Positions 27,901 through 40,817 of a stretch of DNA of 64,000 nt are shown piece after piece. Where the stretch lies: sequence record MH719082.1; one strand, 5' to 3'. The stretch comes from Escherichia phage vB_EcoM_IME392. Made by a program: the position numbers and the translations under genes. Numbering within the stretch: the first letter of the stretch is position 1; every line of letters begins with the position of its first letter. The notes under the pieces were generated by a model that saw only the letters and a program-made list of their open reading frames with translations, was not told the DNA's origin and ran no database searches.

Positions 27901-28209
27901 TGGAGATATAGTCGCAGCTAATTGGCGACCCAAAGTCATTACATGCTTAACGCCATGCTTTTCACACAGCTCGTAAAAGTTGAGACCATCCTTATCACGG
28001 ATTTCGTCTATGTTAGACAGCTCTTCGAAAGTACCATCTCTGTTGATCTCTATCAGACCAACTTTGTTATGTACCCCAGCTGTAATTAGCGCTACATCAA
28101 GAGTTTGGCCAGCATTCGATGCAGCAAACGGAGGAGCATCATTATTCTCGCGCTCGTCCCCGATAATGACATAGTCTACTTCGCCAACTAAATTGTGATT
28201 CAGAAACAT
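24922..28209 (-). CDS. family A DNA polymerase
   Basis: Motif A DFSQAELV, motif B RKGGKAINFALVYQ, motif C VHDSLD; ATG at 28209 with GGAG RBS (ORF-track start at 28221 is TTG). Confidence 0.8.
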   Translation of the reverse strand: MFLNHNLVGEVDYVIIGDERENNDAPPFAASNAGQTLDVALITAGVHNKVGLIEINRDGTFEELSNIDEIRDKDGLNFYELCEKHGVKHVMTLGRQLAATISPGYTHKKTLDKLLKFPLGNIPEYNFKLAVVMHHAQVERNLDSDPGLLDSWIDRFKFLVFGQKESEYNVEWEFVDWNGLQEFLNDIMWSGYKGYLGLDYESNAADLFSVDFRITGFSIAKKIGDKDAKSVWYNVTGKETPEQLGFLRDFLVKFQEQIVAFNCPYEIKTTWHWLDVFCKFIDAIVTLTMHGERSSLKDAARRYLHADFWEGSVHEWKDRWAAIFKDMKKRCTPEQIAEIQSGEFNIEHHLALKAEYEKLVEAAPTKAAKNRVPVNFNQFMLDKIAELSEELEESEIIYLASFYPYEWGAIPREILGEYCCYDSAYGVFIHEMFYDKYKDGYNVYMLHPYLASIFEANGIRWDDEEATKEYDYCMSKMSEHLVSLIPNLKLPPDQMLTARDFIYRELPYENVWYTPGGQERRKMVTTLAGKIADLSGFFNPNSNDKANKEKFWKAYLTDEVEMCTMLWSVMDQLKVHDYWDKTLLAISKGFVPKDSEKLEKEFFREFPVDEILTRIIQFGDTAESKHVRELIAMCVQDGLEAYEERFTNKFKADVLDAQLAIHQLMLGVNPDDESTWNTSFRMMVDLKMYKRHYKQIATYIDGKVGRQTVWAAKLRDGLPPLRVRKYDWDNPKLQDGEDCYIMTPDFNSLAAITSRWQAGIHNVPGDSTLRNIWVSKPEGGLWYHQDFSQAELVMVSVFADDSDMKNVFSSGGDMHRFVSSIAYQKSEPEVTDVERKGGKAINFALVYQSSLESVAMVATGGDMERAQNLMDTVFGKFTGLKAWIDATKKNGFETGYAYGYFGNRINLEGTNVNSTSVNYPIQNTSSMVAGAGMYFLDEDFKQSNMEAETHIMVHDSLDTTSGINEMFKVFQKTRENMEGAIRELWDMPMRTDIEFGARGGSLMGLDDYGVNEDGSGWLIVEGRESALEKLLEALDQYSQWTPYVEILKEKEKLNSIANSFNSKSGIRSDGTGWGCKYIELKAKITLEPKHGEKAA

Positions 28210-28238
28210 GTTTAACTCCAAAAATAAACCTCCGCCAA

Positions 28239-30872: not shown

Positions 30873-31185
30873 AGACTAAACTCTGACCTGCATGGATGCG
30901 TACTGCATGGTTCTTGTTAGAGTTAGTCAGACGAATCCACTTATTACCTTCGTCTGTAGAGAATACCTGAGCAGTTAAGCCCAGGTAAGATACAGAAAGA
31001 TTAGAGATAGAGTCTACAGTTACCGTACTATCTACCGGAAACTCTACCGATGAGCCAGCTCCAACAATGTAGCCACTCTTACGCAGCTTCATCGGAGCAA
31101 TACGACTACTGTGCTGATCGTCAGCACCAATTGTCCGAGCGAACGAGCTCTCAACGTAAACAGTTTCAGGAATATTAATCTGCAT
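30862..31185 (-). CDS. hypothetical protein (107 aa)
   Basis: Internal ATG at 31185 with AAGAGG RBS. Confidence 0.4.
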   Translation of the reverse strand: MQINIPETVYVESSFARTIGADDQHSSRIAPMKLRKSGYIVGAGSSVEFPVDSTVTVDSISNLSVSYLGLTAQVFSTDEGNKWIRLTNSNKNHAVRIHAGQSLVYGN

Positions 31186-31774
31186 TGCCAATAGCCTCTT
31201 TAACCAGGTGCTCGATTGAACTACCATGTGCCATATGGAGAAGAGACTGGAGAGTACCCATCCATACATCATCACTCACTTCGTCTTTGTACTTATTGAA
31301 GCAGGTACTGAAGATGTTGCGGCAGTTCTCCAGCTCGCTTTCGCCAAAGAAGATGTTACCCATGCTGAACTCAGTCATGATCTCACGAGATACCGCAATC
31401 GCATCTGCAACTTTACAGATGAACTTAGCTTCGGCAGATGCAGGAGTGCGGAAAGTAGGAAGTACCTCTTCCCAGATTTCCTGCTCAACTTTATTCAGAG
31501 TCTCTTTTAACTCTGGGAAGCGAGCCTTAGCAGTGTAGGGGACATCACCTGTAAAGATCTCTGGAATGTCGTGAACCAACGAGTACTGATTTACTTCCAG
31601 ACCCTGCTCAGCAGTTAAAAATCCATCCATCACCAGTTTCTGAACAATCAGAGTAGAGTAGTAAGTAACTTCGAAGCTATGCTCCGAGATAGTAGAGCGA
31701 TGAGACAGTACTTGCTTACCTGCGAAGCGATTCACGTTATTGGTACACACTGGTACCTTAAAAAGATCTTTCAT
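31175..31774 (-). CDS. HD-domain phosphohydrolase (YfbR-like 5'-deoxynucleotidase)
   Basis: H...HD...D signature (HSFEV ... HDIPEIFTGDVP). Confidence 0.55.
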   Translation of the reverse strand: MKDLFKVPVCTNNVNRFAGKQVLSHRSTISEHSFEVTYYSTLIVQKLVMDGFLTAEQGLEVNQYSLVHDIPEIFTGDVPYTAKARFPELKETLNKVEQEIWEEVLPTFRTPASAEAKFICKVADAIAVSREIMTEFSMGNIFFGESELENCRNIFSTCFNKYKDEVSDDVWMGTLQSLLHMAHGSSIEHLVKEAIGNAD

Positions 31775-31826
31775 GTAATTTCTCCTAAGTTACAAAAATA
31801 AAGGTATGGAAGTTGCCTCCCACACC

Positions 31827-31857
31827 TTAACAGCCTTTCGAGCCCTAAAAAGAGCGG
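31827..31857 (-). promoter_or_regulatory. 31-bp conserved intergenic motif
   Basis: Consensus match upstream of HD-domain gene start at 31774. Confidence 0.5.
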
Positions 31858-32931
31858 TTATTCCAGAATGAACGGAGACTTATCCCAGAGGCGGTTCGCG
31901 ACCCATTTCACGAATGGTGAATTAACCAGATGCTCGCACTGGATAGACATGTGAGCTCCAGTAGTCTTGCACAGGTAATGAGCACCTGCTAACCACATCA
32001 TCACATCCAGAGTTGATCCTGGTTGGAACTCTCGACCAACATCTTCCATTACGTATTCTAGAATACTGTGATCGCTATTATAACGAGAAGCAGCATCTTC
32101 AAGAGTAGCGATGTAATGCTGGAAGTAGGTACGGATCTTATACCAGGAATTAAGTGATCCGAGATCAATCGTAGTTACCGGAGCTTCATTAATGTCGTCA
32201 ACATAAGCTCGGATATTACTTACCTGCTTCTTGATGTTCGACACTTCCGGATACCAGTGGAGATCATCCGTCATCACCACATAGTTGCCCATATCTACTT
32301 TGAGCATAGTTGCGATGATTTCCTGGATGATCGTGAACTCCACCAGATTAACGTTAGTCAATCCCCAGATTAGATCATTACTACGGTTGAATACCGTGCA
32401 GTCCAGACCACCATTACGGTACTTAAACGATAGAGCAATGTTGCAGATCATATCTGCGGTATTGATGCTGCCGATGCTGTTTACCAAACCTACATCAGAA
32501 TCACGGCTGGGATCGTGAATAGTAGCCACGCACTTACGGTTACCCAGGTCAGAACGGAGGCGGTCTGTTACAGTCTGGAGTTGATCGTAGTTATACAGAC
32601 GCTCACCGTAAGCACCACGCCAGGTAACCATATCATCGCTAAACATCTTAGCGCGAGGAACCATAATCGACATCCAGTTATCGATTGCATAGCCACCAGA
32701 CAGTACCCACAATACTTCCCCCATAATTCCGAGGATATTGTCTTTACGTTCTGGATGAGCCATCCAACGATTAATCGGATTACTTAACTCAACTACAGCA
32801 TGACCGATGGATACTACCGCCGAAGAGTTAACAGAAGTTCTGGACTTCTGCAACTCACCAGCCTTATCCATAGTATTGATGCTGTTAACCAGGATTTCAG
32901 TATTACTGTTACCGCGAATTACCGAGATCAT
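31858..32931 (-). CDS. thymidylate synthase-fold pyrimidine methylase/hydroxymethylase
   Basis: ADMICNIALSF...LDCTVFNRSNDLIWGLTNVNLVEFTII colinear with ThyA PCH...[26 protein letters not shown] core, catalytic Cys retained. Confidence 0.6.
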   Translation of the reverse strand: MISVIRGNSNTEILVNSINTMDKAGELQKSRTSVNSSAVVSIGHAVVELSNPINRWMAHPERKDNILGIMGEVLWVLSGGYAIDNWMSIMVPRAKMFSDDMVTWRGAYGERLYNYDQLQTVTDRLRSDLGNRKCVATIHDPSRDSDVGLVNSIGSINTADMICNIALSFKYRNGGLDCTVFNRSNDLIWGLTNVNLVEFTIIQEIIATMLKVDMGNYVVMTDDLHWYPEVSNIKKQVSNIRAYVDDINEAPVTTIDLGSLNSWYKIRTYFQHYIATLEDAASRYNSDHSILEYVMEDVGREFQPGSTLDVMMWLAGAHYLCKTTGAHMSIQCEHLVNSPFVKWVANRLWDKSPFILE

Positions 32932-33662
32932 TTAGAGTCCTTACGCACTGAATCAATAGACTTAACTGCAGAGGACAGTAACTCCAGACGGGCCTCCTGA
33001 GGGATCATACCAGATGGCTCATTCAGGATCATAATACCTTTACCAGTATTAGTAAAACGAGCTGTGATTGATCCAGGATACACCGGATGATTCAGAGTTA
33101 CAGAATTACACAACGCAGCACCGAATCGCTCCTCGTAGGCACGCATAGTTACCTTAAGGAGAGTAGAACTGACTGCTACAGAGTATTCCGGATCAACAAC
33201 ACGGAAGTTATTGTCCTCAATACTCTTATCCTTCGTATTGAAGAACAGAGTCATGTTATAATAATCAATAGACTCGTTACTGAGACGTAATGCCTCATCA
33301 CGAGCTTCCTGGCTAGCAAACATACTGTTATGCAGCAGGAAGTAAACGTACGAATCGAATACCGCACGATCACTGACGATCAACTCGCCACGATTGTAGG
33401 CATCCTTGAACATCTGAGTTCGCTGACGAATAAGACGCAGCTGGAACTCTACCGCTTCCATAGGATCTTCCACAGCTAAGCGCAGAATATCCATATGGGA
33501 TGTTACTCCCAGAGGAAGATGGTCACGAGTCTGTACTGCACGGAAGGTACATTCGGTTGATTCTTCCCAGCCTTTAGCCAGAGTAGATTTACCGGTACCC
33601 TGCGCACCAGACATAATTACACTGTAGCCTGGGATACTATAGTCTCTCATTATTCTCTCCAA
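32928..33662 (-). CDS. P-loop nucleotide/nucleic-acid kinase
   Basis: Walker A SGAQGTGKST near N-terminus; 244 aa. Confidence 0.55.
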   Translation of the reverse strand: MERIMRDYSIPGYSVIMSGAQGTGKSTLAKGWEESTECTFRAVQTRDHLPLGVTSHMDILRLAVEDPMEAVEFQLRLIRQRTQMFKDAYNRGELIVSDRAVFDSYVYFLLHNSMFASQEARDEALRLSNESIDYYNMTLFFNTKDKSIEDNNFRVVDPEYSVAVSSTLLKVTMRAYEERFGAALCNSVTLNHPVYPGSITARFTNTGKGIMILNEPSGMIPQEARLELLSSAVKSIDSVRKDSK

Positions 33663-33682
33663 TTAAGAATCTTTCCCACATT

Positions 33683-33713
33683 TTAACAGCCTTTCAAGAC
33701 CCTAAAAGAGCGG
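33683..33713 (-). promoter_or_regulatory. 31-bp conserved intergenic motif
   Basis: Consensus match about 20 nt upstream of kinase start at 33662. Confidence 0.5.
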
Positions 33714-33739
33714 ACTAAAAAGGCTGGTGTAAATGTGAA

Positions 33740-34711
33740 CTAGCTAAACTTATACCAGCGAGGTCTCATACGGATCTCGTGATTCAGTTTATGTAGTTTC
33801 GAGAATTCGCAGAATGAGTTGGTGAACATCTGACGAGTATAGAACCGCTCATCCTCCGGCATGAAGTGGAACCATTTCTCCGGCTCCCATGCATACCCGA
33901 AATGAGCACATATCTCTTTGATGTTCTGATACCACCATTCCACGAACATCTGGTAGCCGCAAGGAGGGTTCTGGTCATTAAGCATGTACCATACCCCATC
34001 CTGCGTCCCGGGTCCACATACGATAGCATCGTTATCTGTGTACGCAGTCTCTTTAGAGTAGGACATAGTTGCCCAGCATTGATATGCCATGAACGGACCT
34101 AATCCAGATACCTGTAACAGATGCTCGATGGCCTCGGTAGCGAACGGAGACTTCCATGCCAGTAAGATAGGATCACTGTAGGTCTTCACCAGATAGGCTC
34201 TGGCAGCTACACTGTACTTAATATCCTCTGGACATACTTCATTAGCCATCTTAACTGCTGTGCTAAGGAAGTAGGCATTTGATTGCTGTGGAGCAGTGAA
34301 CGGAGGACCATCCTCATAACGACGTAGCTCTTCACGACCCATGTTATGTATGTCGTCATAGCTCATCTCATAAAGAGGAAGGACTCTGCGGAAGCGATCC
34401 ATATATGAATCACCACGGTTTATCATCTGGAAGAGTACCACGTTAAGCGCCTTACTCTCCCAGCTTAGGGAATCGTTCTCCAGAATGTTCTTGATAGCCC
34501 ATACTGTTTCACGATCGTGCTTACGGAACACGTTAGTGAATTTAAACTTACTAATCCACTTATGTTCTGTCCACGGAGGAGGTAGCTTAAGTATCTCCTT
34601 CTTATAATAAACCTCAGTCCGCTCGCGGTTATACTCCACATACTCACGTAGCTCCTCGGGATTTATCATCCCGAGTAACCCGTCGAAGTGCAAACCTAAC
34701 GGTTTAGACAT
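33740..34711 (-). CDS. hypothetical protein (323 aa) in modification cluster
   Basis: ORF track; position between kinase and glycosyltransferase. Confidence 0.5.
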   Translation of the reverse strand: MSKPLGLHFDGLLGMINPEELREYVEYNRERTEVYYKKEILKLPPPWTEHKWISKFKFTNVFRKHDRETVWAIKNILENDSLSWESKALNVVLFQMINRGDSYMDRFRRVLPLYEMSYDDIHNMGREELRRYEDGPPFTAPQQSNAYFLSTAVKMANEVCPEDIKYSVAARAYLVKTYSDPILLAWKSPFATEAIEHLLQVSGLGPFMAYQCWATMSYSKETAYTDNDAIVCGPGTQDGVWYMLNDQNPPCGYQMFVEWWYQNIKEICAHFGYAWEPEKWFHFMPEDERFYTRQMFTNSFCEFSKLHKLNHEIRMRPRWYKFS

Positions 34712-35790
34712 TAAAGAATACCTTCTTTGGTAAAGTAGTCTATTACTTCATCCTGAAGTTCTTGTGCGTAATCCTTGCGCAGATATAGATTCTCATACTG
34801 ATGTTTCAGCAGAGCATCACGATCTTTCAGTTTCTCTGCAATCTCCGCATTACTGGAGACGATCAGAGGAGCCAGTAGCTCTTCGGGGACGCCGCTCCGG
34901 ATTATTGTTCCAGCAGCATCTTTATCCACCAGCATCAGAGTACCAGAGCTCAGGTATTCGTAATAACGGTTAGGTGGGCTGGTATAGAACGAATTACTGG
35001 AGTTCCAGTCTTCGATAAGCAGTACCGCTGCATATTTAGCCACTTCATCCAGCATCTCTGACAGCTTAAACTTAGGCAGCCAGTTAATCGGAGCAGCAGG
35101 TCCCAGCCACTTACGTTCTTTAGGATCCAGCTCTTCCCAGTTTTCCTGCTCGTAGCCGTCAAATCCTGCAAGACCACCAGTATGTTTAGCGATGGACATC
35201 TGAGCTTTGTAGCTCGGCACCGACATAAACAGTTCCAGACCATCTTGCTGGGAGAAGTACTGAGTGAACTTATGGAAGCGGCCTTCACGAGCAGCACCGT
35301 AATACAGCAGGCTATTGTCCGGCTTATCTGACGATCCATAGCGAGGCTTACGACCAGGAACGTAGGTAAGACGGTTCCAGTTAATGTGATGATAGTTCTC
35401 TTCGCTAGGAGAATACTGATTACCCCAGGAAGTACGTTCAAATGCTGCTACAACTTTAAATACAGTAGCTGCGGTGATGTGTCTCCACTGCGGACCCTGG
35501 ATACGCATCTTAGACGAGTAATCCTGTCCAATCCAGTAGAACTTAGCTCCGACATCTGCCTGGTCTACCCAGAACTTATACATCTCGTCGCGGAACTTAC
35601 AGAAGGTAGGAACACCATTGATGGCGATAATCACGTCATATTTAGTGCCATCTTCCATAGCCTTAACGAACTTAGGAGTATCGTCCAACAGGTCAGCTTG
35701 AAGTCCGTAGGCTAACCAGGAAGCCAGAGTATTACTGGCAATGATGGATTTATCGCTGCATGGCGAAAAGTTAGTTACTGCAATCTTCAT
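34711..35790 (-). CDS. putative glycosyltransferase (GT-B-like)
   Basis: N-terminal MKIAVTNFSP and C-terminal GTLMLVDKD segments resemble T-even DNA beta-glucosyltransferase; similarity is weak and from memory. Confidence 0.4.
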   Translation of the reverse strand: MKIAVTNFSPCSDKSIIASNTLASWLAYGLQADLLDDTPKFVKAMEDGTKYDVIIAINGVPTFCKFRDEMYKFWVDQADVGAKFYWIGQDYSSKMRIQGPQWRHITAATVFKVVAAFERTSWGNQYSPSEENYHHINWNRLTYVPGRKPRYGSSDKPDNSLLYYGAAREGRFHKFTQYFSQQDGLELFMSVPSYKAQMSIAKHTGGLAGFDGYEQENWEELDPKERKWLGPAAPINWLPKFKLSEMLDEVAKYAAVLLIEDWNSSNSFYTSPPNRYYEYLSSGTLMLVDKDAAGTIIRSGVPEELLAPLIVSSNAEIAEKLKDRDALLKHQYENLYLRKDYAQELQDEVIDYFTKEGIL

Positions 35791-35817
35791 GTTTAATTTC
35801 TCCGTAGGCTGTCACAA

Positions 35818-35850
35818 TTTAACAGCCTTTTAGCTCATCAAAGAAGCGAG
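35818..35850 (-). promoter_or_regulatory. 31-bp conserved intergenic motif (variant)
   Basis: TTAACAGCCTTTTAG...AAAGAAGCGAG; upstream GGCTGT forms hairpin with ACAGCC. Confidence 0.45.
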
Positions 35851-36872
35851 TTAGCTGATGCCCAGCTCAGCCAGTTATCGTTGAGATCGGTCAGGTAGGA
35901 GTAATCCTTATTCAGACCGAATACAGTACGGTTAGTTCCGTCGAACTTCATTATACCAGCGCCAGGAGCTCTGATGATTGCATCTTCCGTAGCCAGACAA
36001 TATTCTTTCAAGTATTCCTGGATGTTGGGACGAATACGACGGAAGGAACTATCTGCCGAGTCATAGTGGAACATATCTGCGCAGTGCCACTGTACGTAGG
36101 ATTTATCCGGACGGCTGAGTAGTTCATTACGGGTAACCATATCTTTAGGAGAATATCCCAGCTTAGCTACAGTGACTTCGTGAATACCTCCACCATTAGA
36201 CGAAGTATCCATCAGCCAGTTTTCGTCCCAGTAGAACGAAGTACCAGTACCAGTTACCTGTCCAACCTTCCAGCCCATCGCCATACCTTTAAACAACAGG
36301 TAGCAATCTTCTCCTACGGTCAACTGTTGGAAGGTTATATCGAACAGCCAGAACATCTTCTCACTGGTCTTGACCATGATACCGAGGTCAGTGGCCGGAG
36401 CAGTGTTATTATGTGACTGACGATCGCATAGTTCAACAATCTTGTAGTTACGATTCTTGAAGCTACGGACGAACGCCATCTCAAACTCAGATCCCTCGAA
36501 GTCTATAACGGAACGGTCCAGATGGAAAATATTATCTGCGAACCAGACATCATCATCCACGAAGTAGCAGATGTCTGGACACCAGTTCTGATCCTCCATT
36601 AAAATCCATGCCTTATCAAGAGCATGAGCTCGGATTCTTCCGATTACCGGATTATCGTACTTAGGACGATGCCAGAAATTAAACTGCTCGTCCCCACCGA
36701 ACTGCTCTTCCAGAACTGCCTTATCTTCTTCGGAGGCATCCTGCATAAAGTAGAAGAAACGATACTCGATAGAGTCGTCAGTCTTCTTAGCATCTTTGAA
36801 CGACTGAATCTGACGGAGTACCGACTTCATACGATGATAGGTTGGGATGATAAAAGCCACTTTGGTAGTCAT
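35838..36872 (-). CDS. GT-A fold glycosyltransferase (family 2-like)
   Basis: IIPTYHR N-terminal block and DDD (DxD) motif. Confidence 0.5.
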   Translation of the reverse strand: MTTKVAFIIPTYHRMKSVLRQIQSFKDAKKTDDSIEYRFFYFMQDASEEDKAVLEEQFGGDEQFNFWHRPKYDNPVIGRIRAHALDKAWILMEDQNWCPDICYFVDDDVWFADNIFHLDRSVIDFEGSEFEMAFVRSFKNRNYKIVELCDRQSHNNTAPATDLGIMVKTSEKMFWLFDITFQQLTVGEDCYLLFKGMAMGWKVGQVTGTGTSFYWDENWLMDTSSNGGGIHEVTVAKLGYSPKDMVTRNELLSRPDKSYVQWHCADMFHYDSADSSFRRIRPNIQEYLKEYCLATEDAIIRAPGAGIMKFDGTNRTVFGLNKDYSYLTDLNDNWLSWASANSLL

Positions 36873-36878
36873 ATTTAT

Positions 36879-37490
36879 TTATCCAATTTGACGAACTAAG
36901 CGAAACCCTTCGGCGTACGGCCACTGGGCAGAATATCCACGTAAGGTGGCTAGAGCTAAGATACTCTGGGTATCTCGGTCTGACTTAATCTGGGAGTCGA
37001 ATCGTCCCATAGCCTGGCACTTACACTCAATATCGTCCTTATTCAGACGCTCGAAGTAATTAGGTTCCATCTGACCGAACTGGGTCAGGGACTCGGCATA
37101 CTCATATTCCAGGATAAGCCAGTTATACGCTCGGAGAGCTACACGAGCAGCATGATTAACTAGTTGATGGTCCTGGTGTAGGCTACTGAACGGAATATAG
37201 ACTACATCCGGCCTGATTTTAGCAACATAGTCCGCAATATCCTTAGCCAATTGCGGAATATCCTTCTGAGTCATACCATCGCCTGTGGAGGCATCGTTAC
37301 GCTCCAGGCAATGTACTTCTTTGATATTCGGATAGACACCGAATGCTGCTTCGGCTTCACCACGACGGGTCTCGTCCGGAGCAGTTACTTCGAGGATGAA
37401 AAATTGGTCGTCGCGGAATTTGCTCATAATACCTCCGCAACCCAGAATCTCATCATCGTGATGTGGGCTGATAATCAATCGTGACTTCAT
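36879..37490 (-). CDS. PIG-L/LmbE family N-acetylglucosaminyl deacetylase
   Basis: SPHHDDEILGCGG matches the PIG-L zinc-binding HPDDE motif. Confidence 0.7.
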   Translation of the reverse strand: MKSRLIISPHHDDEILGCGGIMSKFRDDQFFILEVTAPDETRRGEAEAAFGVYPNIKEVHCLERNDASTGDGMTQKDIPQLAKDIADYVAKIRPDVVYIPFSSLHQDHQLVNHAARVALRAYNWLILEYEYAESLTQFGQMEPNYFERLNKDDIECKCQAMGRFDSQIKSDRDTQSILALATLRGYSAQWPYAEGFRLVRQIG

Positions 37491-37514
37491 TATTAATCCT
37501 CGCTACACAAAAAT

Positions 37515-37541
37515 GGGGTTAGGCCGTAGAGACCTAACCCC
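37515..37541 (-). terminator. intrinsic terminator (9-bp hairpin plus U-tract)
   Basis: GGGGUUAGG...CCUAACCCC followed by AUUUUUGUG. Confidence 0.55.
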
Positions 37542-37557
37542 GTACGCCTCTGACACC

Positions 37558-37588
37558 TTAACAGCCTTTTAGGTCATCAAACAGGAGG
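37558..37588 (-). promoter_or_regulatory. 31-bp conserved intergenic motif (variant, overlaps 3' end of transporter CDS)
   Basis: Left half conserved; right half diverged where it overlaps last codons of 37577-38959. Confidence 0.4.
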
Positions 37589-38959
37589 AGTTTCCTTAGC
37601 CAAGAATACTTTAGGTACAAAGATCTTGAGGAACCCGAATAGAATACACAATACCCCAATCAGTACCGGAACAGCCGATACAGCTACCAGAGTCTTCGTT
37701 ACAGTTACTACGTCACCACCTGCCCAGTTAAGTGCAGCAGCAACTACACCCATGCTTACAATCCAGAATACACGAGTTCTAGGAGCGGTCATGGACTCTA
37801 CCGTAATACCTGCTGAGTCATGACCTGTAATAAAGAACAGAATCACAGACACGAGGGTAATTACTGAGAATATCCATCCGCCTGGGAAATTAGCCAGAAG
37901 CTGGAAGATATCCTGAGCACCATGTTGCAAACCGGCTACACCGAATACGGTAAACCATACGTTACTGATAATGGTAGGGAACAGTACACATCCCAGGATC
38001 AGTTCGCGAATAGTACGGCCGTAAGAGATACGTGCCACAAACGCTCCGACGAATAATGCCCAACCTACCCAGGCTGCATAGTAAGCATAAGGCCAGCTAG
38101 CCAGCCATTGCTTCTCTTCAGCAGTACTGCCAATGTTTACCGACATAGGAATAATCTGGAGCAGATAGCTGCCAGAATAGGTGATGGTCTTCCAGAGGTA
38201 TTCAAAGAATGTACCACTTACAGCAACGAATGCCATAATAGATAGAGCTACGATTACATTATATCTGGATAACCACTTAACCCCACGATCGACACCAGTT
38301 ACGGCACTAAGTACAGTGCCCAGAGTCAGGAGTGCGATAATGGTGTAAGGACCAACATCCACACCAAGGAACTCTTTAAATCCAGAACTGATCGGGCCTA
38401 CTGCGTAGACGAACGACAGGGTTAAGCCTATGATGGTCGAGAAGAGTAAGCTTATCGTATTAAGGTTATTCAGAGTTCGGGACTTGAATAACTGATTAAG
38501 CGGACGGTCTTCACCACGTACATGCAGTAAGTACCCGAATGCCACCCCTACGACTGCATACACAGCCCATGCATTAAGTCCCCAGTCAAAGAAGGTAGTT
38601 ACCATATTCTGACGTTCGGACATACCCTCCTGATGATGGTACATAGGTTCGAGTACGCCATAATAAATCATGGATACACCCATACCGGTACTAAACATCA
38701 TAGAGTAATAGGTAAAGCGATTGTATTTCGGAGTACCTTTACCCAGCTTAATGTTACCATGTTTGCTGAATACAAAGAATGCCAGGAACGCCAGGAAGAT
38801 CAGCGAAGACCAGGTAAATATGAATCCATACTGAGATATAAATACAGACTTACTCCAGTCCATTACAGCACCAAACTGGGTGGGAGCAAACATAATGGCG
38901 AGTACAATACCCACCGTTACCAGCACCGTCCCCCAGGTAACTACCTTTGAATCGGACAT
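37577..38959 (-). CDS. BCCT family transporter (betaine/carnitine/choline-type)
   Basis: Multi-pass membrane protein; FVGAFVARISYGRTIRE matches the BCCT signature. Confidence 0.8.
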   Translation of the reverse strand: MSDSKVVTWGTVLVTVGIVLAIMFAPTQFGAVMDWSKSVFISQYGFIFTWSSLIFLAFLAFFVFSKHGNIKLGKGTPKYNRFTYYSMMFSTGMGVSMIYYGVLEPMYHHQEGMSERQNMVTTFFDWGLNAWAVYAVVGVAFGYLLHVRGEDRPLNQLFKSRTLNNLNTISLLFSTIIGLTLSFVYAVGPISSGFKEFLGVDVGPYTIIALLTLGTVLSAVTGVDRGVKWLSRYNVIVALSIMAFVAVSGTFFEYLWKTITYSGSYLLQIIPMSVNIGSTAEEKQWLASWPYAYYAAWVGWALFVGAFVARISYGRTIRELILGCVLFPTIISNVWFTVFGVAGLQHGAQDIFQLLANFPGGWIFSVITLVSVILFFITGHDSAGITVESMTAPRTRVFWIVSMGVVAAALNWAGGDVVTVTKTLVAVSAVPVLIGVLCILFGFLKIFVPKVFLAKETPPV

Positions 38960-38962
38960 TGA

Positions 38963-39871
38963 TTATTCCTCAATTACGCCCTTAGCGATTAACTGGCGAC
39001 GGACGTATGCGTAGCCAGCAGGTGAAGTAGCGAGGACGATGTCCGCACTACGGAAGTTGGTTTCGATATAGAAGCACTCCTGAAGATCCCGAGTACAGAA
39101 GAGCTCAGTACTCATCATACCCTCGCGTACGTTACATGCATCTGCAACGAATTGCGCAACATCTTCGAAGTGGTCTACCGAATGACTATAGCCGAATCCA
39201 CGGGCATCAGTAGATATAACGTAGTTAGGGCAGTACGGAGTGAAGTCAGTATCTTCGTAGGATTTACCCTGGATAGTGAAGATATCTGCATAGTCCTTGA
39301 ACCCGCTCGGGCTAACCAGAAGATCCCAGGCAACTACCATACCATCGATAACATCTGCCTGAAGTACCAGAGAGGTAGTATATTCGTCCGGTGCCTTATC
39401 GCAGACCAAAATTGGGGAGTCTCCCAGAAGGTCCGACATAGTGCCCGCACCCTTGCCCCCGTGAACACGATCACGGCGTACAAACGCCTCCTGAGGCCTC
39501 TGGTACAGTCTGAACGACGGTACAATCAGCGAATCAGGCAGAGTTCCCAGGTTAGCTTCGGAGCGAAGGCAGGATAATTGGTCAGCTTTAGACCACGTAC
39601 TTTCGATAGCGTGCAGATCGTTACCGATTTTGGTATAGATATAGCTTTCCGGATTACGGCACTTACCCTGATTCAACTCTTCGATAACCGAGTCGAAATA
39701 AGGAAGTCGTACTGATCCCTCACGAGGAGCAGTTAACGCTACTGAGCCATGCTTGGTATGATCCTGATCAACTACCATAACCTGGTCCAGACTTACACCC
39801 ATCTTAAGAATCTGGGATAATGTAGCTGCCGTGTGATTAGTGCAGCCAATCATCAAATCTAACTTCTTCAT
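38963..39871 (-). CDS. hypothetical enzyme-sized protein (302 aa)
   Basis: ORF track; 4 nt downstream of transporter gene. Confidence 0.5.
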   Translation of the reverse strand: MKKLDLMIGCTNHTAATLSQILKMGVSLDQVMVVDQDHTKHGSVALTAPREGSVRLPYFDSVIEELNQGKCRNPESYIYTKIGNDLHAIESTWSKADQLSCLRSEANLGTLPDSLIVPSFRLYQRPQEAFVRRDRVHGGKGAGTMSDLLGDSPILVCDKAPDEYTTSLVLQADVIDGMVVAWDLLVSPSGFKDYADIFTIQGKSYEDTDFTPYCPNYVISTDARGFGYSHSVDHFEDVAQFVADACNVREGMMSTELFCTRDLQECFYIETNFRSADIVLATSPAGYAYVRRQLIAKGVIEE

Positions 39872-39898
39872 TTTAATTCCTCAGTTAACTTGTACAAC

Positions 39899-39928: not shown

Positions 39929-39942
39929 AAATAATAGATATC

Positions 39943-39964: not shown

Positions 39965-39972
39965 TGTATATA

Positions 39973-40713
39973 TTACTTTAATTCGGAGAGATCTGCGATC
40001 TTCACCTTAGCTGATACATCCCAGATTCCTTCACCAAATCCGGTATCTTCCAGCAGCTTAGGCACTTCACGTTTCTGTACCTTAGATTGCTCGTACTTAA
40101 GCAGAGGAATATTACCGGTCTTATCTGATTGATCCCACAGATAAGTAGCAGCACCGATGTTATCGAACAGTGCGAGATCTGGATTAAACTGGGTAAGGAG
40201 TCGGCAGTCCCAGTGAGACTTATGTTCCTCGAAAGGATTAGTTTCCGTGCCACGCTGACGATACTCATAGTTAGGAGTACCGATCACGATTTTAGCCTTA
40301 GACTGGAATAGCTTAGACAACACCATAAGCCCGTCTTCGCTATCCAGATGCTCCAACACATCCAGCCAGATAATAGTGCCGAATTTATCCAGCTCTTCAA
40401 TAGGAAGATCTTTCAACAGTTCAACGATATTGCAGATATAGATATCGCTATATACATTTACACTGCCTTTGATGTAGTCTTCGCAGATGTCCAGACCTGT
40501 AATCTGACCATCGAATCCTGCGTTACGGAGAGCAAGACCAATTTCTCCACGACCTAATCCCATATCCAGGATTGGCCCGGAGATAATTTCGTTACGGAGC
40601 ATCCATTGGAGAAAGTGCTTCTGGACTAAGTAGGAGGTGCCTCCGTTGCCCAGTGAAGCCTTCGTGACCTTAGTACCAGGAACGAAATTACACTCGATAT
40701 GTTTACCAAACAT
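39973..40713 (-). CDS. class I SAM-dependent methyltransferase
   Basis: Motif I ILDMGLGRGEIG and downstream acidic WLDVLEH block. Confidence 0.6.
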   Translation of the reverse strand: MFGKHIECNFVPGTKVTKASLGNGGTSYLVQKHFLQWMLRNEIISGPILDMGLGRGEIGLALRNAGFDGQITGLDICEDYIKGSVNVYSDIYICNIVELLKDLPIEELDKFGTIIWLDVLEHLDSEDGLMVLSKLFQSKAKIVIGTPNYEYRQRGTETNPFEEHKSHWDCRLLTQFNPDLALFDNIGAATYLWDQSDKTGNIPLLKYEQSKVQKREVPKLLEDTGFGEGIWDVSAKVKIADLSELK

Positions 40714-40739
40714 GTTCTGTCCTCATTAGTTTCGACACC

Positions 40740-40770
40740 TTAACAGCCTTTGGAGCCGTAAAAGAAGTGG
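40740..40770 (-). promoter_or_regulatory. 31-bp conserved intergenic motif
   Basis: Between terminator hairpin and methyltransferase start at 40713. Confidence 0.5.
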
Positions 40771-40810: not shown

Positions 40811-40817
40811 TAGTTAG

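What the first reader, a model, noticed from the sequence alone, without database searches (positions are those of the whole stretch)
31175..37490. Candidate DNA hypermodification pathway: HD nucleotidase, ThyA-fold enzyme, kinase, glycosyltransferases, PIG-L deacetylase
Seven consecutive co-oriented genes combine (i) an HD-domain 5'-deoxynucleotidase, (ii) a thymidylate-synthase-fold enzyme with the catalytic Cys retained, (iii) a P-loop kinase, (iv) an unassigned 323-aa protein, (v) a GT-B and (vi) a GT-A glycosyltransferase, and (vii) a PIG-L family N-acetyl-sugar deacetylase. In phages, ThyA homologues make hydroxymethyl-pyrimidine nucleotides (T4 dCMP hydroxymethylase, SPO1 dUMP hydroxymethylase), and glycosyltransferases then decorate the hydroxymethyl group. 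Post-replicative thymidine hypermodification pathways use a P-loop kinase (5-HMUDK) to activate hydroxymethyl-dU in DNA. A PIG-L deacetylase in this context would imply an amino-sugar (GlcNAc to GlcN) step, which I do not recognise from described phage DNA modifications. The combination sits inside the replication module, not with tail or lysis genes, which argues for DNA rather than cell-envelope targets.
Basis: partly seen in the sequence, partly recalled or inferred. Interest (0 to 1): 0.85.

Follow-up and report, generated by a model that had tools for sequence, protein, structure and literature searches.

The report
Phage thymine-glycosylation gene cluster
A virulent E. coli phage carries a co-regulated block of genes that most likely replaces thymine in its DNA with hydroxymethyluracil and then attaches sugars to it, using a previously unrecognised relative of the phage T4 DNA glucosyltransferase.

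Summary
The seven co-oriented genes exist as described and evolve under strong purifying selection. The window is Escherichia phage vB_EcoM_IME392 (94% identical to EP_H11).

**Assignments confirmed**
- YfbR-like HD phosphohydrolase.
- ThyA-fold enzyme of the dUMP-hydroxymethylase clade. It keeps the catalytic Cys and the uracil-type Asn and lacks the thymidylate synthase C-terminus.
- A P-loop kinase.
- A PIG-L deacetylase.
- The "unassigned" 323-aa protein is Pfam HMUDK_hel, the former aGPT-Pplase clade 1.

**Main result**
- The 359-aa "GT-B" protein is a distant homologue of T4 beta-glucosyl-HMC transferase. A 12-member family HMM hits T4 BGT at E=2e-8, and hhalign gives 89.5%.
- In seven of ten metagenomic phage loci this family sits with HMUDK_hel, a uracil-type ThyA homologue and an HD gene.

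**Claims not met or unverified**
- The kinase is not a canonical 5-hmdU DNA kinase. It travels with ThyA and HD as a nucleotide-precursor module.
- No 5-HMUDK, HMUD2 or amino-acid:DNA transferase was detected in the ORFs scanned.
- The "GT-A" call rests on motifs only.

**Reading**
- 5-hmdU is probably built into the DNA and then glycosylated directly, as in base J. Amino-sugar tailoring by PIG-L may follow.
- Published work only says these phages are probably T-modified; the pathway itself is not described.
- This is a new variant of a known kind. The chemistry is untested.

The parts
31175..31774 (-). HD-domain phosphohydrolase (YfbR-like 5'-deoxynucleotidase family). Its inferred role is clearing dTMP/dTTP or other competing nucleotides.
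   Evidence: Pfam YfbR-like 1.6e-14 and HD_3 2.6e-6. PHROG 7076 5.9e-19. The same ThyA-HD pairing occurs in M6 (gp58-gp59), Ab1-TPeters and the metagenomic loci. The substrate is inferred.
31858..32931 (-). ThyA-fold enzyme, predicted to be a dUMP 5-hydroxymethylase.
   Evidence: Pfam Thymidylat_synt 4.7e-12 and PHROG 3676 6.5e-71. The best PDB match is CMP hydroxymethylase MilA at 3e-13, against 6e-5 for thymidylate synthases. It is 41-42% identical to ViI-like enzymes and 32% to M6 gp58. C163 and N195 align with E. coli C146 and N177, and the TS C-terminus is absent.
32928..33662 (-). P-loop kinase (AAA_28/dNK/Tmk-like), predicted to be a 5-hmdUMP (dNMP) kinase. Its stop overlaps the ThyA start by 4 nt.
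   Evidence: Pfam AAA_28 2.1e-9, with no hit to PF18748 or PF18747. PHROG 2107 'thymidylate kinase' 1.2e-11. Phage homologues occur only in EP_H11, Ab1-TPeters and RP13. It is syntenic with ThyA-HD in Ab1-TPeters. Similarity to M6 gp54 is confined to the P-loop.
33740..34711 (-). HMUDK_hel protein, the former aGPT-Pplase clade 1. It is a predicted DNA-glycosylase-like helical protein that partners hmdU-DNA enzymes. Its start overlaps the stop of the BGT-like gene.
   Evidence: Pfam PF18723 3.2e-35. PHROG 2396 5.3e-41. 32% identical to RP13 ORF120, with 359 phage records matching by tblastn. Family-invariant PWT, F.N..R..D, GPG and CE..K motifs are kept.
34711..35790 (-). BGT-like glycosyltransferase, a distant homologue of T4 beta-glucosyl-HMC transferase (GT-B fold). 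It is predicted to glycosylate 5-hmdU in DNA.
   Evidence: BLASTP against T4 BGT gives E=0.009. Smith-Waterman shuffle z is 6.7 for the window protein and 10.2 for P0002, with controls at or below 1.7. The family HMM hits T4 BGT at E=2.1e-8 as the only non-family hit among 3352 ORFs, and hhalign gives 89.5%, E=2e-6, over 246 columns. Residues aligned with BGT D100, R191, R195, R269 and E272 are invariant. The family recurs next to HMUDK_hel and ThyA-like genes.
35838..36872 (-). Candidate GT-A-type glycosyltransferase, supported only by motifs.
   Evidence: No family or PDB hit. Three homologues exist in the protein collection. IPTYHR, VDDD and GEDCYLL are invariant in all four sequences. The AF2 model has pLDDT 36. 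No similarity to the T6 beta-alpha-glucosyltransferase.
36879..37490 (-). PIG-L/LmbE-family N-acetyl-sugar deacetylase. Its stop lies 6 nt upstream of the GT-A candidate's start.
   Evidence: Pfam PIG-L 6.7e-14. NCBIfam BshB1 1.3e-5. HHDD at residue 10 and HQDH at residue 105. Homologues occur in 33 phage records. RP13 has a PIG-L near its HMUDK_hel.
37577..38959 (-). BCCT-family transporter (betaine/carnitine/choline type) in the same lineage-specific island. A role in the pathway is speculative.
   Evidence: Pfam BCCT 1e-92. NCBIfam betaine BCCT 1.8e-72, below its cutoff. Apart from EP_H11, the 'phage' records with BCCT look mostly like host contigs or fragments (my reading).
38963..39871 (-). 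302-aa protein of unknown family, 3 nt upstream of BCCT. Its motifs resemble an ATP-grasp ligase, which is my reading and is unverified.
   Evidence: No Pfam, NCBIfam or PDB hit. Four homologues exist, one at 37% identity. FVRRDRVHGGKxAG and FYIExNFR are invariant.
39973..40713 (-). Class I SAM-dependent methyltransferase of the small-molecule type. It is the first gene of the island, just after topoisomerase II.
   Evidence: Pfam Methyltransf_25/23/31/11 at 4e-5 to 1e-3, all below cutoff. NCBIfam UbiG 1.4e-5.
40735..40751 (-). Phage promoter-like motif AAAGGCTGTTARRNTGT upstream of the methyltransferase. Further copies lie at 39894-39910, 37553-37569, 35814-35830, 33678-33694 and 31822-31838.
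   Evidence: 18 copies in the window, all on the gene strand, against 0.01 expected. Six lie in the intergenic gaps of the cluster.
37515..37541 (-). Terminator-like GC-rich hairpin followed by a T-run, between BCCT and PIG-L. Similar hairpins lie at 40791-40812, 39943-39964 and 31801-31828.
   Evidence: Consensus scan found 17 sites in the region against 7.6 expected.
24922..28221 (-). A-family DNA polymerase of the SP15-like subfamily, described in the literature as UDG-fused. It is listed as context: the polymerase that must copy the modified DNA.
   Evidence: Best PDB matches are 9qhs at 2.4e-39 and the 1306-aa chains 9qlh/9qli at 6e-21. EP_H11 and IME392 are placed in this polymerase group by bioRxiv 10.1101/2025.03.26.645540 and PMC12686479.

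Best explanation
The cluster is a thymidine-hypermodification pathway of phage vB_EcoM_IME392. It builds 5-hydroxymethyl-dU into DNA and then glycosylates it directly.

**Nucleotide level**
1. dUMP is supplied by a dCTP-deaminase-like protein and a dUTPase. These were seen in the sister phage EP_H11, in the part of the genome outside the window.
2. The ThyA-fold enzyme converts dUMP to 5-hmdUMP.
3. The translationally coupled P-loop kinase makes the diphosphate, and host NDP kinase makes the triphosphate.
4. The HD hydrolase removes competing thymidine nucleotides.
5. The SP15-like polymerase incorporates hmdU.

**DNA level**
1. The BGT-like glycosyltransferase, encoded in one unit with the HMUDK_hel protein, transfers a sugar from a nucleotide sugar onto the 5-hydroxymethyl group. 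This is what T4 beta-glucosyltransferase does on hmC and what JGT does for base J.
2. HMUDK_hel is proposed to be the hmdU-DNA recognition or base-flipping partner, not a kinase appendage.
3. The next promoter unit (PIG-L plus the GT-A candidate) would add an N-acetyl-hexosamine and deacetylate it to an amino sugar.
4. The 302-aa protein, BCCT transporter and methyltransferase units may tailor that amine further.

**Shown here:** family memberships, homology to T4 BGT, recurrent gene linkage, a shared promoter motif, and purifying selection.
**Inferred:** every substrate and product, and the order of steps.
For: **Hydroxymethylase, not thymidylate synthase**
- Best PDB hit is the hydroxymethylase MilA at 3e-13, against 6e-5 for thymidylate synthases.
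- Closest phage relatives are the ViI-like and M6-like enzymes, and their host distribution tracks that of the HMUDK_hel hits.
- Cys146 and Asn177 equivalents are present, and the TS C-terminus is absent.

**HMUDK_hel:** PF18723 at 3.2e-35.

**BGT homology**
- The family HMM hits T4 BGT at E=2.1e-8; the next hit is 0.33.
- hhalign gives 89.5% over 246 columns.
- Shuffle z is 6.7 and 10.2, with negative controls.
- BGT active-site equivalents are invariant in the 11 full-length members.

**Linkage**
- In 7 of 10 IMG/VR loci the BGT-like gene lies with HMUDK_hel, a uracil-type ThyA homologue and HD.
- One of these (L054) is cut at the contig end and shows no HMUDK_hel.
- No HMUDK, ADDT or window-type kinase homologue was detected in the flanks held, up to 8 kb.
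- T4 itself has b-gt adjacent to gene 42.

**Kinase as precursor enzyme**
- No PF18748 or PF18747 hit.
- Synteny with ThyA-HD in Ab1-TPeters, where tblastn finds no HMUDK_hel.
- RP13 has both this kinase type and a separate HMUD2 DNA kinase.

**Canonical partners not detected**
- No HMUDK, HMUD2 or ADDT hit in the 40 window ORFs or the 10 EP_H11 early-region ORFs scanned.
- No other small Walker-A protein was found.

**Co-regulation and reality of the genes**
- Six copies of one promoter-like motif lie in the cluster.
- pN/pS is at most 0.11.

**Phage group context**
- The polymerase matches the SP15-like PDB chains 9qhs and 9qlh.
- Relatives carry oligosaccharide-modified thymidine, and Carin-5's includes a HexNAc (PMC12686479).
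Against: - No chemistry was measured. Nothing shows that IME392 DNA is modified.
- Homology to T4 BGT is remote. Pfam and the PDB sequence searches did not return it, and no usable structure model was obtained.
- The sugar donor and acceptor are inferred.
- The roles I assign to the BGT residues come from my memory of the BGT structural literature. A search did not find a source.
- HMUDK_hel has no demonstrated function, and its published partners are kinases.
- The window kinase is adjacent to HMUDK_hel, as in M6 and in the SP10 fusion, so a DNA-kinase role is not excluded.
- The GT-A candidate and the 302-aa protein have no detectable homology to any characterised family.
- PIG-L could act on a soluble intermediate rather than on DNA.
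- The structural-gene region of the genome was not scanned with Pfam.
Confidence: 0.6

Rival explanations
1. Canonical activation and substitution route. The P-loop kinase plus the adjacent HMUDK_hel form a split 5-hmdU DNA kinase, like the SP10 gp186 fusion. They make 5-phosphomethyl-dU in DNA. An unrecognised transferase then displaces or extends the phosphate with a linker, and the glycosyltransferases and PIG-L build an oligosaccharide on it. The product would be a linker-phosphate-sugar adduct like those of SP-15, YerA41 and Carin-5.
For: - The kinase and HMUDK_hel are adjacent, 77 nt apart.
- The same adjacency occurs in M6 (gp54-gp55), and the two are fused in SP10 (PMC5889632).
- It is the only small P-loop kinase found.
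- Relatives with the same polymerase type carry a phosphate in their thymidine adduct (PMC12686479).
- 5-HMUDKs themselves give weak hits to Tmk and dNK models, so fold alone does not discriminate.
Against: - The kinase hits neither PF18748 nor PF18747.
- Its similarity to M6 gp54 is limited to the P-loop.
- It is conserved with ThyA-HD in Ab1-TPeters, where tblastn finds no HMUDK_hel homologue.
- RP13 carries a separate HMUD2 kinase as well as this kinase type.
- HMUDK_hel occurs with the BGT-like gene and no detected kinase in several metagenomic loci.
- No ADDT-type transferase was detected.
Confidence: 0.22
2. Only the ThyA, kinase and HD genes concern DNA, producing plain hmdU or T. The glycosyltransferase-like proteins, PIG-L, transporter, 302-aa protein and methyltransferase act on a non-DNA target: virion proteins, host envelope glycans, or a small molecule made in a mycothiol- or bacillithiol-like way.
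For: - The best NCBIfam match of the PIG-L is the bacillithiol deacetylase BshB1.
- PIG-L homologues occur in mycobacteriophages and Arthrobacter phages annotated as glucosaminyl deacetylase.
- GT plus deacetylase plus ligase is the logic of mycothiol and bacillithiol synthesis (my knowledge).
- A membrane transporter in the island points to small-molecule traffic.
- A second glycosyltransferase cluster elsewhere in the window shows the phage has other glycosylation activities.
Against: - The 359-aa protein is homologous specifically to the DNA glucosyltransferase of T4, and ordinary GT4 enzymes score at background against BGT.
- Its gene overlaps HMUDK_hel, and the family recurs beside dUMP-hydroxymethylase genes.
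- All units share one promoter motif and sit inside the replication module.
- The sister phage Ab1-TPeters has two GT4 genes at the same genomic position.
- No bacterial envelope homologues were found for the GT candidates in 5.8 billion proteins.
Confidence: 0.12
3. An ordinary nucleotide-metabolism block. The ThyA homologue is a plain thymidylate synthase, the kinase is a thymidylate kinase, and the DNA is unmodified.
For: GenBank annotation of EP_H11 and Ab1-TPeters calls these genes thymidylate synthase and thymidylate kinase. PHROG names say the same.
Against: - NCBIfam thymidylate synthase equivalog scores are far below cutoff, 29-44 bits against cutoffs of 108-405.
- The TS C-terminus is absent.
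- The best PDB hit is a hydroxymethylase.
- The closest relatives come from hmdU-hypermodifying phages.
- HMUDK_hel and a BGT homologue are present.
Confidence: 0.04

Closest known systems
T-even phage hmC glucosylation (T4 gene 42 dCMP hydroxymethylase, gene 1 dNMP kinase, beta-glucosyltransferase)
   Same: - A ThyA-fold hydroxymethylase makes a hydroxymethyl-pyrimidine nucleotide.
- A phage kinase phosphorylates it.
- After replication, a BGT-type GT-B enzyme is predicted to glycosylate the hydroxymethyl group in DNA.
- The glycosyltransferase gene lies next to the hydroxymethylase gene in T4 and in most loci of the new family.
- The 359-aa protein is homologous to T4 BGT.
   Different: - The hydroxymethylase is uracil-type, with Asn where T4 gp42 has Asp nearby. 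The base is therefore hmU replacing T, not hmC replacing C.
- An HMUDK_hel protein accompanies the glycosyltransferase, which T-even phages lack as far as I know.
- Identity to BGT is only about 21-25%.
- There are extra genes for deacetylation and other tailoring.
Thymidine hypermodification of ViI, M6, PaMx11, phiW-14 and SP10 (5-HMUDK plus amino-acid:DNA transferase; Lee et al. 2018, 2022)
   Same: - The same dUMP-hydroxymethylase clade.
- The same HD partner.
- The same HMUDK_hel family as M6 gp55.
- Post-replicative modification of hmdU.
   Different: - No PF18748 or PF18747 DNA kinase and no PF18724 transferase was detected.
- No PLP or radical-SAM homologue of M6 gp52 or gp53 was found in the window by jackhmmer.
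- Glycosyltransferase-type genes take their place. In M6-like metagenomic backbones the gp51-gp54 cassette is not found, and the BGT-like gene sits next to HMUDK_hel.
[quoted passage not shown]
   Same: The predicted first product is the same type of base: a hexose O-linked to the hydroxymethyl group of hmU in DNA.
   Different: - There, hmU is made in DNA by JBP dioxygenases and glucosylated by JGT, a different enzyme (my knowledge).
- Here, hmU would be made at the nucleotide level and glycosylated by a BGT homologue.
- The literature searched holds no phage example.
SP-15 / YerA41 / Carin-5 / RP13 group (SP15-like UDG-fused PolA phages with oligosaccharide-modified thymidine)
   Same: - The same polymerase subfamily.
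- EP_H11 and IME392 are listed in this group and presumed T-modified.
- Glycosyltransferase and deacetylase genes lie near the polymerase in Carin-5.
- RP13 has PIG-L, a GT1 and HMUDK_hel.
   Different: - Those adducts have a C5 alkyl linker and a phosphate (PMC12686479).
- The tailoring genes are not detectably orthologous between RP13 and the window.
- The BGT-like gene was found only in EP_H11 among 50,697 phage records.
- RP13 has an HMUD2 kinase that was not detected here.
Mycothiol and bacillithiol biosynthesis (GT-B GlcNAc transferase, PIG-L deacetylase, ligase)
   Same: The order of chemistry suggested by the gene set is the same: transfer GlcNAc, deacetylate with a PIG-L enzyme (best NCBIfam match BshB1), then acylate the free amine.
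   Different: The acceptor would be DNA rather than malate or inositol phosphate. The ligase assignment of the 302-aa protein is unverified. This is an analogy of logic only.

Membership tests
Thymidylate synthase / pyrimidine hydroxymethylase superfamily (PF00303) | Significant match to the family model above the curated cutoff | tested here: met
   46 bits against a cutoff of 24.3, E=4.7e-12.
Thymidylate synthase / pyrimidine hydroxymethylase superfamily (PF00303) | Catalytic cysteine and nucleotide-binding Arg-Ser-x-Asp, His and Tyr residues | tested here: met
   C163, R183, S184, D186, H225 and Y227 are invariant against E. coli ThyA, M6 gp58 and the Ab1-TPeters enzyme.
Bona fide thymidylate synthase (dTMP-forming) | Reaches NCBIfam equivalog cutoffs and has the conserved C-terminal tail that closes the active site | tested here: not met
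   NCBIfam scores are 29-44 bits against cutoffs of 108-405. The C-terminal region is a roughly 120-aa unrelated extension.
dUMP hydroxymethylase of hmdU phages | Clusters with enzymes of hmdU-hypermodifying phages, and has a uracil-type Asn at the base-discriminating position | tested here: met
   41-42% identical to ViI-like enzymes and 32% to M6 gp58. N195 aligns with E. coli N177. The best PDB hit is a hydroxymethylase.
dUMP hydroxymethylase of hmdU phages | Produces 5-hmdUMP from dUMP and methylene-tetrahydrofolate | not testable with these tools
   This needs an enzyme assay.
5-hmdU DNA kinase (PF18748 HMUDK_HMUD1 / PF18747 HMUD2) | Match to either Pfam model | tested here: not met
   The window kinase hits only AAA_28 and AAA_25 at E up to 0.01. 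The positive controls hit: M6 gp54 matches PF18748 at 7.7e-18 and RP13 ORF133 matches PF18747 at 1.4e-13.
5-hmdU DNA kinase (PF18748 HMUDK_HMUD1 / PF18747 HMUD2) | Co-occurrence that depends on HMUDK_hel or ADDT | tested here: not met
   The kinase is kept with ThyA-HD in Ab1-TPeters, where tblastn finds no HMUDK_hel homologue.
5-hmdU DNA kinase (PF18748 HMUDK_HMUD1 / PF18747 HMUD2) | Phosphorylates hmdU within DNA | not testable with these tools
   This needs an assay on SP8 or SPO1 DNA.
HMUDK_hel / aGPT-Pplase clade 1 (PF18723) | Match above cutoff over the full length of the model | tested here: met
   122.3 bits against a cutoff of 25, covering profile positions 5-277 of 281. PHROG 2396. 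The M6 gp55 and RP13 ORF120 controls hit the same model.
Amino-acid:DNA transferase (PF18724 ADDT, formerly aGPT-Pplase clade 2) | Match to the model by the 323-aa protein or any other ORF | tested here: not met
   No hit in 40 window ORFs or 10 EP_H11 ORFs. BLASTP against M6 gp51 gives E=0.35.
T4 beta-glucosyltransferase family (GT63, GT-B fold) | Statistically supported sequence homology to T4 BGT | tested here: met
   The family HMM gives E=2.1e-8 among 3352 ORFs. hhalign gives 89.5%, E=2e-6. Shuffle z is 6.7 and 10.2.
T4 beta-glucosyltransferase family (GT63, GT-B fold) | Recognised by the curated library models or by PDB sequence search | tested here: not met
   No BGT-family Pfam hit at E up to 10. 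T4 BGT chains were not returned by three PDB searches.
T4 beta-glucosyltransferase family (GT63, GT-B fold) | Conservation of the catalytic Asp and the UDP-binding Arg/Arg/Arg/Glu | tested here: met
   D90, R168, R171, R275 and E278 align with BGT D100, R191, R195, R269 and E272. They are invariant in the 11 full-length members; D90 lies outside the truncated L054 fragment. The roles of the BGT residues are from my own knowledge and were not verified here.
T4 beta-glucosyltransferase family (GT63, GT-B fold) | GT-B two-domain fold | tested here: inconclusive
   The single-sequence AF2 model has pLDDT 33.8.
GT-A glycosyltransferase (GT2-like) | Match to a GT-A family model or structure | tested here: not met
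   No Pfam, PHROG, NCBIfam or PDB hit for the protein or its homologues.
GT-A glycosyltransferase (GT2-like) | N-terminal beta-strand/PTY motif, a DxD about 95 residues later, and an ED motif about 80 residues after that | tested here: met
   IPTYHR at 10-14, VDDD at 105-108 and GEDCYLL at 187-193 are invariant in four sequences at 61-95% identity. That this spacing is typical of GT-A enzymes is my own knowledge.
GT-A glycosyltransferase (GT2-like) | Rossmann-like GT-A fold | tested here: inconclusive
   The AF2 model has pLDDT 36. Only the first 60 residues (strand-helix-strand-helix) exceed 50.
PIG-L / LmbE deacetylase (PF02585) | Match above cutoff, and metal-binding His/Asp motifs | tested here: met
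   52.9 bits against a cutoff of 28.2. HHDD at residue 10 and HQDH at residue 105.
YfbR-like HD 5'-deoxynucleotidase (PF12917) | Match above cutoff | tested here: met
   54.4 bits against a cutoff of 25.9. The NCBIfam equivalog cutoff is not reached, at 27 against 122 bits, so the substrate may differ.
SP15-like / RP13-like phage group (UDG-fused A-family polymerase) | Polymerase most similar to the phiLo/YerA41-type polymerases | tested here: met
   The top PDB hits are 9qhs at 2.4e-39 and 9qlh/9qli (1306 aa) at 6e-21, ahead of most canonical Pol I chains. The literature places EP_H11 and IME392 in this group. The N-terminal UDG domain itself was not tested.

The most novel reading that the evidence does not exclude
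The island from 33.7 to 40.7 kb may encode a multi-step decoration not known on any DNA.
1. hmdU is glycosylated by the BGT-like enzyme with HMUDK_hel acting as its base-recognition subunit.
2. A HexNAc is added and then deacetylated by PIG-L to a free amino sugar.
3. The amine is acylated by the 302-aa ATP-grasp-like protein with a compound imported by the phage's own BCCT transporter, such as a betaine-type quaternary amine, and/or is methylated.

The product would be a cationic glyco-conjugate on thymine. A corollary is that HMUDK_hel is a general hmU-DNA adaptor that can serve glycosyltransferases as well as kinases.
Probability: 0.12. Interest if true: 0.9.

Novelty: new variant of a known kind. 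Interest (0 to 1): 0.72.

Why it matters
**A third route for thymidine hypermodification.** If confirmed, phages would be known to elaborate hmdU in three ways:
- amino-acid transfer via a phosphorylated intermediate (ViI, M6);
- the poorly understood alkyl-linker adducts (SP-15, YerA41);
- direct glycosylation by a T4-BGT-type enzyme, giving a phage counterpart of base J.

**A candidate partner role for HMUDK_hel.** This widespread protein (former aGPT-Pplase clade 1) still has no demonstrated function. The linkage found here makes its role testable.

**An experimental handle.** The family of about a dozen BGT-like genes gives a defined set of enzymes to express. They could become tools for selective labelling of 5-hmU in DNA, as T4 BGT is for 5-hmC.

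**Practical consequences.** The modification probably shapes the phage's resistance to restriction and other DNA-targeting defences. It probably also affects how well such phages can be sequenced. Both matter for metagenomic 'dark matter' and for therapeutic use of coliphages.

Tried and rejected
**Structure route.**
- Single-sequence models of the 359-aa and 344-aa proteins had pLDDT 34 and 36. No fold search was run.

The 24.5-kb Logan contig that carries 61-75% homologues of three island genes could not be read.

**PDB searches that gave nothing.** This covers sequence and profile searches for the 359-aa, 344-aa, 302-aa, kinase and L010 335-aa proteins.

**Pfam on homologues.** Nothing was found for P0002 to P0009.

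**hhalign against GT4 enzymes.** Comparing the 359-aa pair with the two Ab1-TPeters GT4 enzymes showed no relationship.

**GT-A candidate against known enzymes.** No similarity to the T6 beta-glucosyl-HMC-alpha-glucosyltransferase (z=-1.5) or to the window's own DXD protein at 56349-57140.

**Collection scans.**
- Single proteins and the GT-A alignment found nothing in IMG/VR.
- The GT-A alignment found nothing in JGI metagenomes.
- Only the HMUDK_hel and BGT-like alignments succeeded.

**Orthology with RP13.** phmmer between RP13 neighbours and the window ORFs found no orthology for PIG-L, GT or HMUD2.

**Literature.**
- Iyer et al. 2013 is not held.
- No source was found for the BGT residue roles.
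- No paper analyses the IME392 or EP_H11 modification beyond a table entry.

**Sigma-70 promoters.** The scan was at background, 19 found against 20.6 expected.

Full report
**Identity of the window and check of the observation**

The window is Escherichia phage vB_EcoM_IME392. The 359-aa protein is 100% identical to one of its hypothetical proteins, on a 116,460-bp contig. The only DNA-level relative among 50,697 phage records is Escherichia phage EP_H11, which is 94.2% identical over the whole region. Against EP_H11, all seven genes and the three upstream neighbours have pN/pS of 0.00-0.11. They are functional genes. The block lies between the topoisomerase II subunits and primase, helicase and PolA, so "inside the replication module" is correct.

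**Family assignments**

Confirmed by Pfam, PHROG or NCBIfam:
- HD (31175-31774): YfbR-like, 1.6e-14.
- ThyA fold (31858-32931): 4.7e-12, and PHROG 3676 at 6.5e-71.
- P-loop kinase (32928-33662): AAA_28, 2.1e-9.
- PIG-L (36879-37490): 6.7e-14, with HHDD at residue 10 and HQDH at residue 105.

The "unassigned" 323-aa protein matches PF18723 HMUDK_hel at 3.2e-35. Control scans of phage M6 show the current Pfam names:
- PF18723 matches M6 gp55, the former aGPT-Pplase clade 1.
- PF18724 ADDT matches gp51, the characterised amino-acid:DNA transferase.
- PF18748 matches gp54, the 5-hmdU DNA kinase.

The two glycosyltransferase calls had almost no library support. The 359-aa protein gave one marginal hit (Glyco_trans_1_2, E=0.023). 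The 344-aa protein gave none.

**The ThyA homologue is a hydroxymethylase-type enzyme acting on uracil**
- Its best solved relative is CMP hydroxymethylase MilA at 3e-13, against 6e-5 for any thymidylate synthase.
- NCBIfam thymidylate synthase equivalogs score 29-44 bits against cutoffs of 108-405.
- Outside its own lineage, the nearest phage homologues are those of ViI-like Ackermannviridae (41-42%) and M6 (32%). These phages make hmdU as the precursor of hypermodified thymidine (PMC8989533).
- In an alignment with E. coli ThyA, the catalytic Cys (C163 = C146), the nucleotide-binding residues and the uracil-specifying Asn (N195 = N177) are kept. The C-terminal tail of thymidylate synthases is replaced by an unrelated extension of about 120 residues.

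**The kinase is probably not the DNA kinase**
- It hits neither Pfam 5-hmdU DNA kinase model.
- It resembles M6 gp54 only at the P-loop.
- It has phage homologues only in EP_H11, Acinetobacter phage Ab1-TPeters (38%) and Ralstonia phage RP13 (35%).
- Ab1-TPeters has the same order: kinase, ThyA, HD, primase, helicase, PolA. tblastn finds there no homologue of HMUDK_hel or of any of the six genes upstream of it.
- RP13 has this kinase type and also a separate protein matching PF18747 "5-hmdU DNA kinase 2" at 1.4e-13. A preprint could not find that kinase.

Kinase, ThyA and HD therefore form a conserved precursor module. The kinase stop overlaps the ThyA start. The most economical role is hmdUMP kinase. 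A DNA-kinase role cannot be excluded, for two reasons. It is the only small Walker-A protein in the window and in the rest of EP_H11. It also sits next to HMUDK_hel, as gp54 does in M6.

**No canonical hypermodification core**

Forty window ORFs and ten EP_H11 early-region ORFs were scanned. None hit PF18748, PF18747 or PF18724. The structural region was not scanned. EP_H11 does encode a dCTP-deaminase-like protein and a dUTPase, which would supply dUMP.

**The 359-aa protein is a relative of T4 beta-glucosyltransferase**

The protein has only two entries in the 5.8-billion-protein collection. Searching IMG/VR with an HMUDK_hel alignment brought in an M6-like contig, L010, at 64% GC. That contig encodes, with overlapping stops and starts:
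- HMUDK_hel;
- a 335-aa protein whose termini look like a GT-B enzyme (my reading);
- a homologue of the 359-aa protein (BLASTP 3e-15);
- a ThyA homologue;
- HD.

Reading the three sequences, I recognised motifs of T4 beta-glucosyl-HMC transferase and fetched the T4 gene to test this. The results were:

| Test | Result |
|---|---|
| BLASTP, window protein vs T4 BGT | E=0.009 over 211 residues |
| Smith-Waterman shuffle, window protein | z=6.7, 0 of 500 shuffles reach the score |
| Smith-Waterman shuffle, 75% homologue P0002 | z=10.2, 0 of 500 |
| Smith-Waterman shuffle, L010 member alone | z=1.1, not significant |
| Six controls, including three ordinary GT-B-type proteins | z from -1.4 to 1.7 |
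| 12-member family HMM, filters off, vs all 3352 ORFs of the fetched loci | T4 BGT at E=2.1e-8; next hit 0.33 |
| hhalign, family vs T4 BGT | 89.5%, E=2e-6, 246 columns |

The residues aligned with BGT D100, R191, R195, R269 and E272 are invariant in the 11 full-length members. I recall those BGT residues as the catalytic base and the UDP ligands, but this is unverified. Curated libraries and PDB sequence searches miss the relationship, so it is remote.

**Recurrent linkage**

Of the ten IMG/VR loci with this family, seven also carry a ThyA homologue and an HD gene:
- Four (L049, L050, L052, L053) have the strict order HMUDK_hel, BGT-like, ThyA.
- L055, the same contig as L010, has one extra gene between HMUDK_hel and the BGT-like gene.
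- L051 has HMUDK_hel, ThyA and HD about 5 kb from the BGT-like gene.
- L054 is cut at the contig end and shows no HMUDK_hel.

These seven sit on M6-like backbones. No HMUDK, ADDT or window-type kinase homologue was detected in the flanks held, which reach up to 8 kb. More than twenty ordinary M6-like loci keep both HMUDK and ADDT. All the neighbouring ThyA homologues are uracil-type. T4 itself places b-gt next to gene 42. The module HMUDK_hel, BGT-like, uracil hydroxymethylase and HD thus exists on two unrelated phage backbones. This argues that the glycosyltransferase acts on hmdU in DNA and that HMUDK_hel works with it. I found no paper describing glycosyl-hmU made this way in phages. The literature on glucosyl-hmU that I found concerns base J.

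**Extent and organisation of the island**

Comparison with Ab1-TPeters shows that 33740-40713 is lineage-specific cargo between topoisomerase II and the kinase. It holds HMUDK_hel, the BGT-like gene, the GT-A candidate, PIG-L, a BCCT transporter, the 302-aa protein and a methyltransferase. At the same position Ab1-TPeters has two bona fide GT4 glycosyltransferases, and it has sugar-activation genes elsewhere.

A 17-nt motif, AAAGGCTGTTARRNTGT, occurs 18 times in the window. All copies are on the gene strand, against 0.01 expected. Six copies sit in the cluster's intergenic gaps and define short units:
- methyltransferase;
- 302-aa protein with BCCT;
- PIG-L with the GT-A candidate;
- BGT-like gene with HMUDK_hel;
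- kinase with ThyA;
- HD onward.

Strong terminator-like hairpins lie after topoisomerase II, the methyltransferase, BCCT and ThyA. The units are therefore co-regulated. Each may correspond to one chemical step, which is inference.

**What remains uncertain**
- The GT-A label rests on three invariant motifs in the right order and spacing. The protein is unrelated to the T6 second-sugar transferase.
- The 302-aa protein has ATP-grasp-like motifs but no detectable homology.
- PIG-L family deacetylases occur in 33 other phage records. One lies near the HMUDK_hel of RP13 together with a GT1 and a WbqC-like protein. Carin-5, a phage with the same polymerase type, has a deacetylase and glycosyltransferases next to its polymerase, and a HexNAc in its 1073-Da thymidine adduct (PMC12686479).
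- An amino-sugar step on DNA is therefore plausible and has circumstantial precedent. It has not been shown anywhere.
- The BCCT transporter is almost unique among genuine phage genomes. Its link to the pathway is only positional.

**Relation to the literature and verdict**

Two papers from one group list EP_H11 and IME392 among phages with SP15-like UDG-fused polymerases. They infer that these phages are T-modified from the aGPT-Pplase gene and the ThyA homologue. The window polymerase matches those PDB structures best. Nothing more specific has been published in the library searched.

The 5-HMUDK step is not supported. The best reading is direct BGT-type glycosylation of hmdU assisted by HMUDK_hel, with probable amino-sugar tailoring. 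This is a new variant of known phage DNA hypermodification. It is supported by comparative genomics and has no chemical data yet.

Noticed in passing
window, 18 sites on the minus strand, e.g. 2079-2095, 9021-9037, 28235-28251, 44085-44101, 50113-50129, 59298-59314, 60144-60160: A conserved 17-nt motif, AAAGGCTGTTARRNTGT, occurs 18 times, only on the gene strand, against 0.01 expected by chance. It is often preceded by CGCTCTTTTTAGGG. It looks like a phage-specific promoter for the replication and nucleotide genes, and may be read by the phage's own Rpb1-like RNA polymerase.
   Followed up: partly
window 2117-5519, minus strand: A second glycosylation-like cluster. It contains DUF7217 (1.7e-79), two weak MptE-like/Maf-like proteins (PF01973 at 5e-4 and 1.5e-3, below cutoff), a Glycos_transf_1 GT-B protein (6.7e-6) and an unassigned 209-aa ORF. 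MptE is a hydroxymethylpterin pyrophosphokinase, so these could be a lead for hmU activation, or they could simply be Maf-type glycosyltransferases.
   Followed up: partly
window 56349-57140, minus strand: A 263-aa protein with a weak match to the DXD sugar-binding glycosyltransferase region (Gly_transf_sug, 5.5e-4, below cutoff). This is a further possible glycosyltransferase outside the cluster.
   Followed up: no
window 37577-38959: A full-length BCCT (betaine/carnitine/choline) transporter encoded by a virulent coliphage. Among phage records, essentially only EP_H11 shares it. Most other hits look like host contigs or fragments filed as phage.
   Followed up: partly
L002 (Ralstonia phage RP13) 23341-24597, 6098-6739, 9481-10593: RP13 ORF133 matches Pfam HMUD2 '5-hmdU DNA kinase 2' at 1.4e-13, although a preprint states that no 5-HMUDK could be detected in RP13. 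ORF106 is a PIG-L (1e-18) and ORF112 a GT1. A WbqC-like protein and an inositol-1-phosphate synthase lie in the same neighbourhood as its HMUDK_hel.
   Followed up: partly
L006 13327-15593; L003 30514 to L007 1015 (Acinetobacter phage Ab1-TPeters): This phage shares the replication, ThyA, kinase and HD core with the window. It has two GT4 glycosyltransferases (one also matching GT4-conflict) directly after topoisomerase II. It also has a heptose kinase/adenylyltransferase annotation and a phosphomannomutase-like gene. It may glycosylate hmdU in a different way.
   Followed up: partly
window 31175-31774 compared with L001: The HD gene is 99.8% identical in nucleotides between the window and EP_H11, while all neighbouring genes are 90.6-95.0% identical. 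This suggests a recent recombinational exchange of that segment.
   Followed up: no
window 9059-9832 and other ORFs among those scanned: The window also encodes a PolX-type polymerase (beta-thumb and HHH_8 domains), an NAD-dependent ligase, proteins with RNA polymerase Rpb1 domains 1-5, an Acb1 anti-CBASS homologue, a YpsA SLOG protein, RusA and RNase H. PolX plus ligase fits the base-excision-repair set described for SP15-like polymerase phages.
   Followed up: no
L046, L047, L048 (IMG/VR contigs), BGT-like genes at about 8000-8980: Three members of the BGT-like family lie in contexts with no detectable HMUDK_hel, ThyA or HD within 8 kb. The family may also work with another source of hydroxymethyl-pyrimidine, such as a DNA dioxygenase.
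   Followed up: no
window 30862-31275: The mechanical 137-aa GTG ORF overlaps the 3' end of the HD gene by about 100 nt. EP_H11 annotates a shorter, 106-aa version that overlaps by only 11 nt, so the long start is probably not used. The kinase ORF likewise starts at TTG four codons upstream of the start annotated in EP_H11.
   Followed up: no
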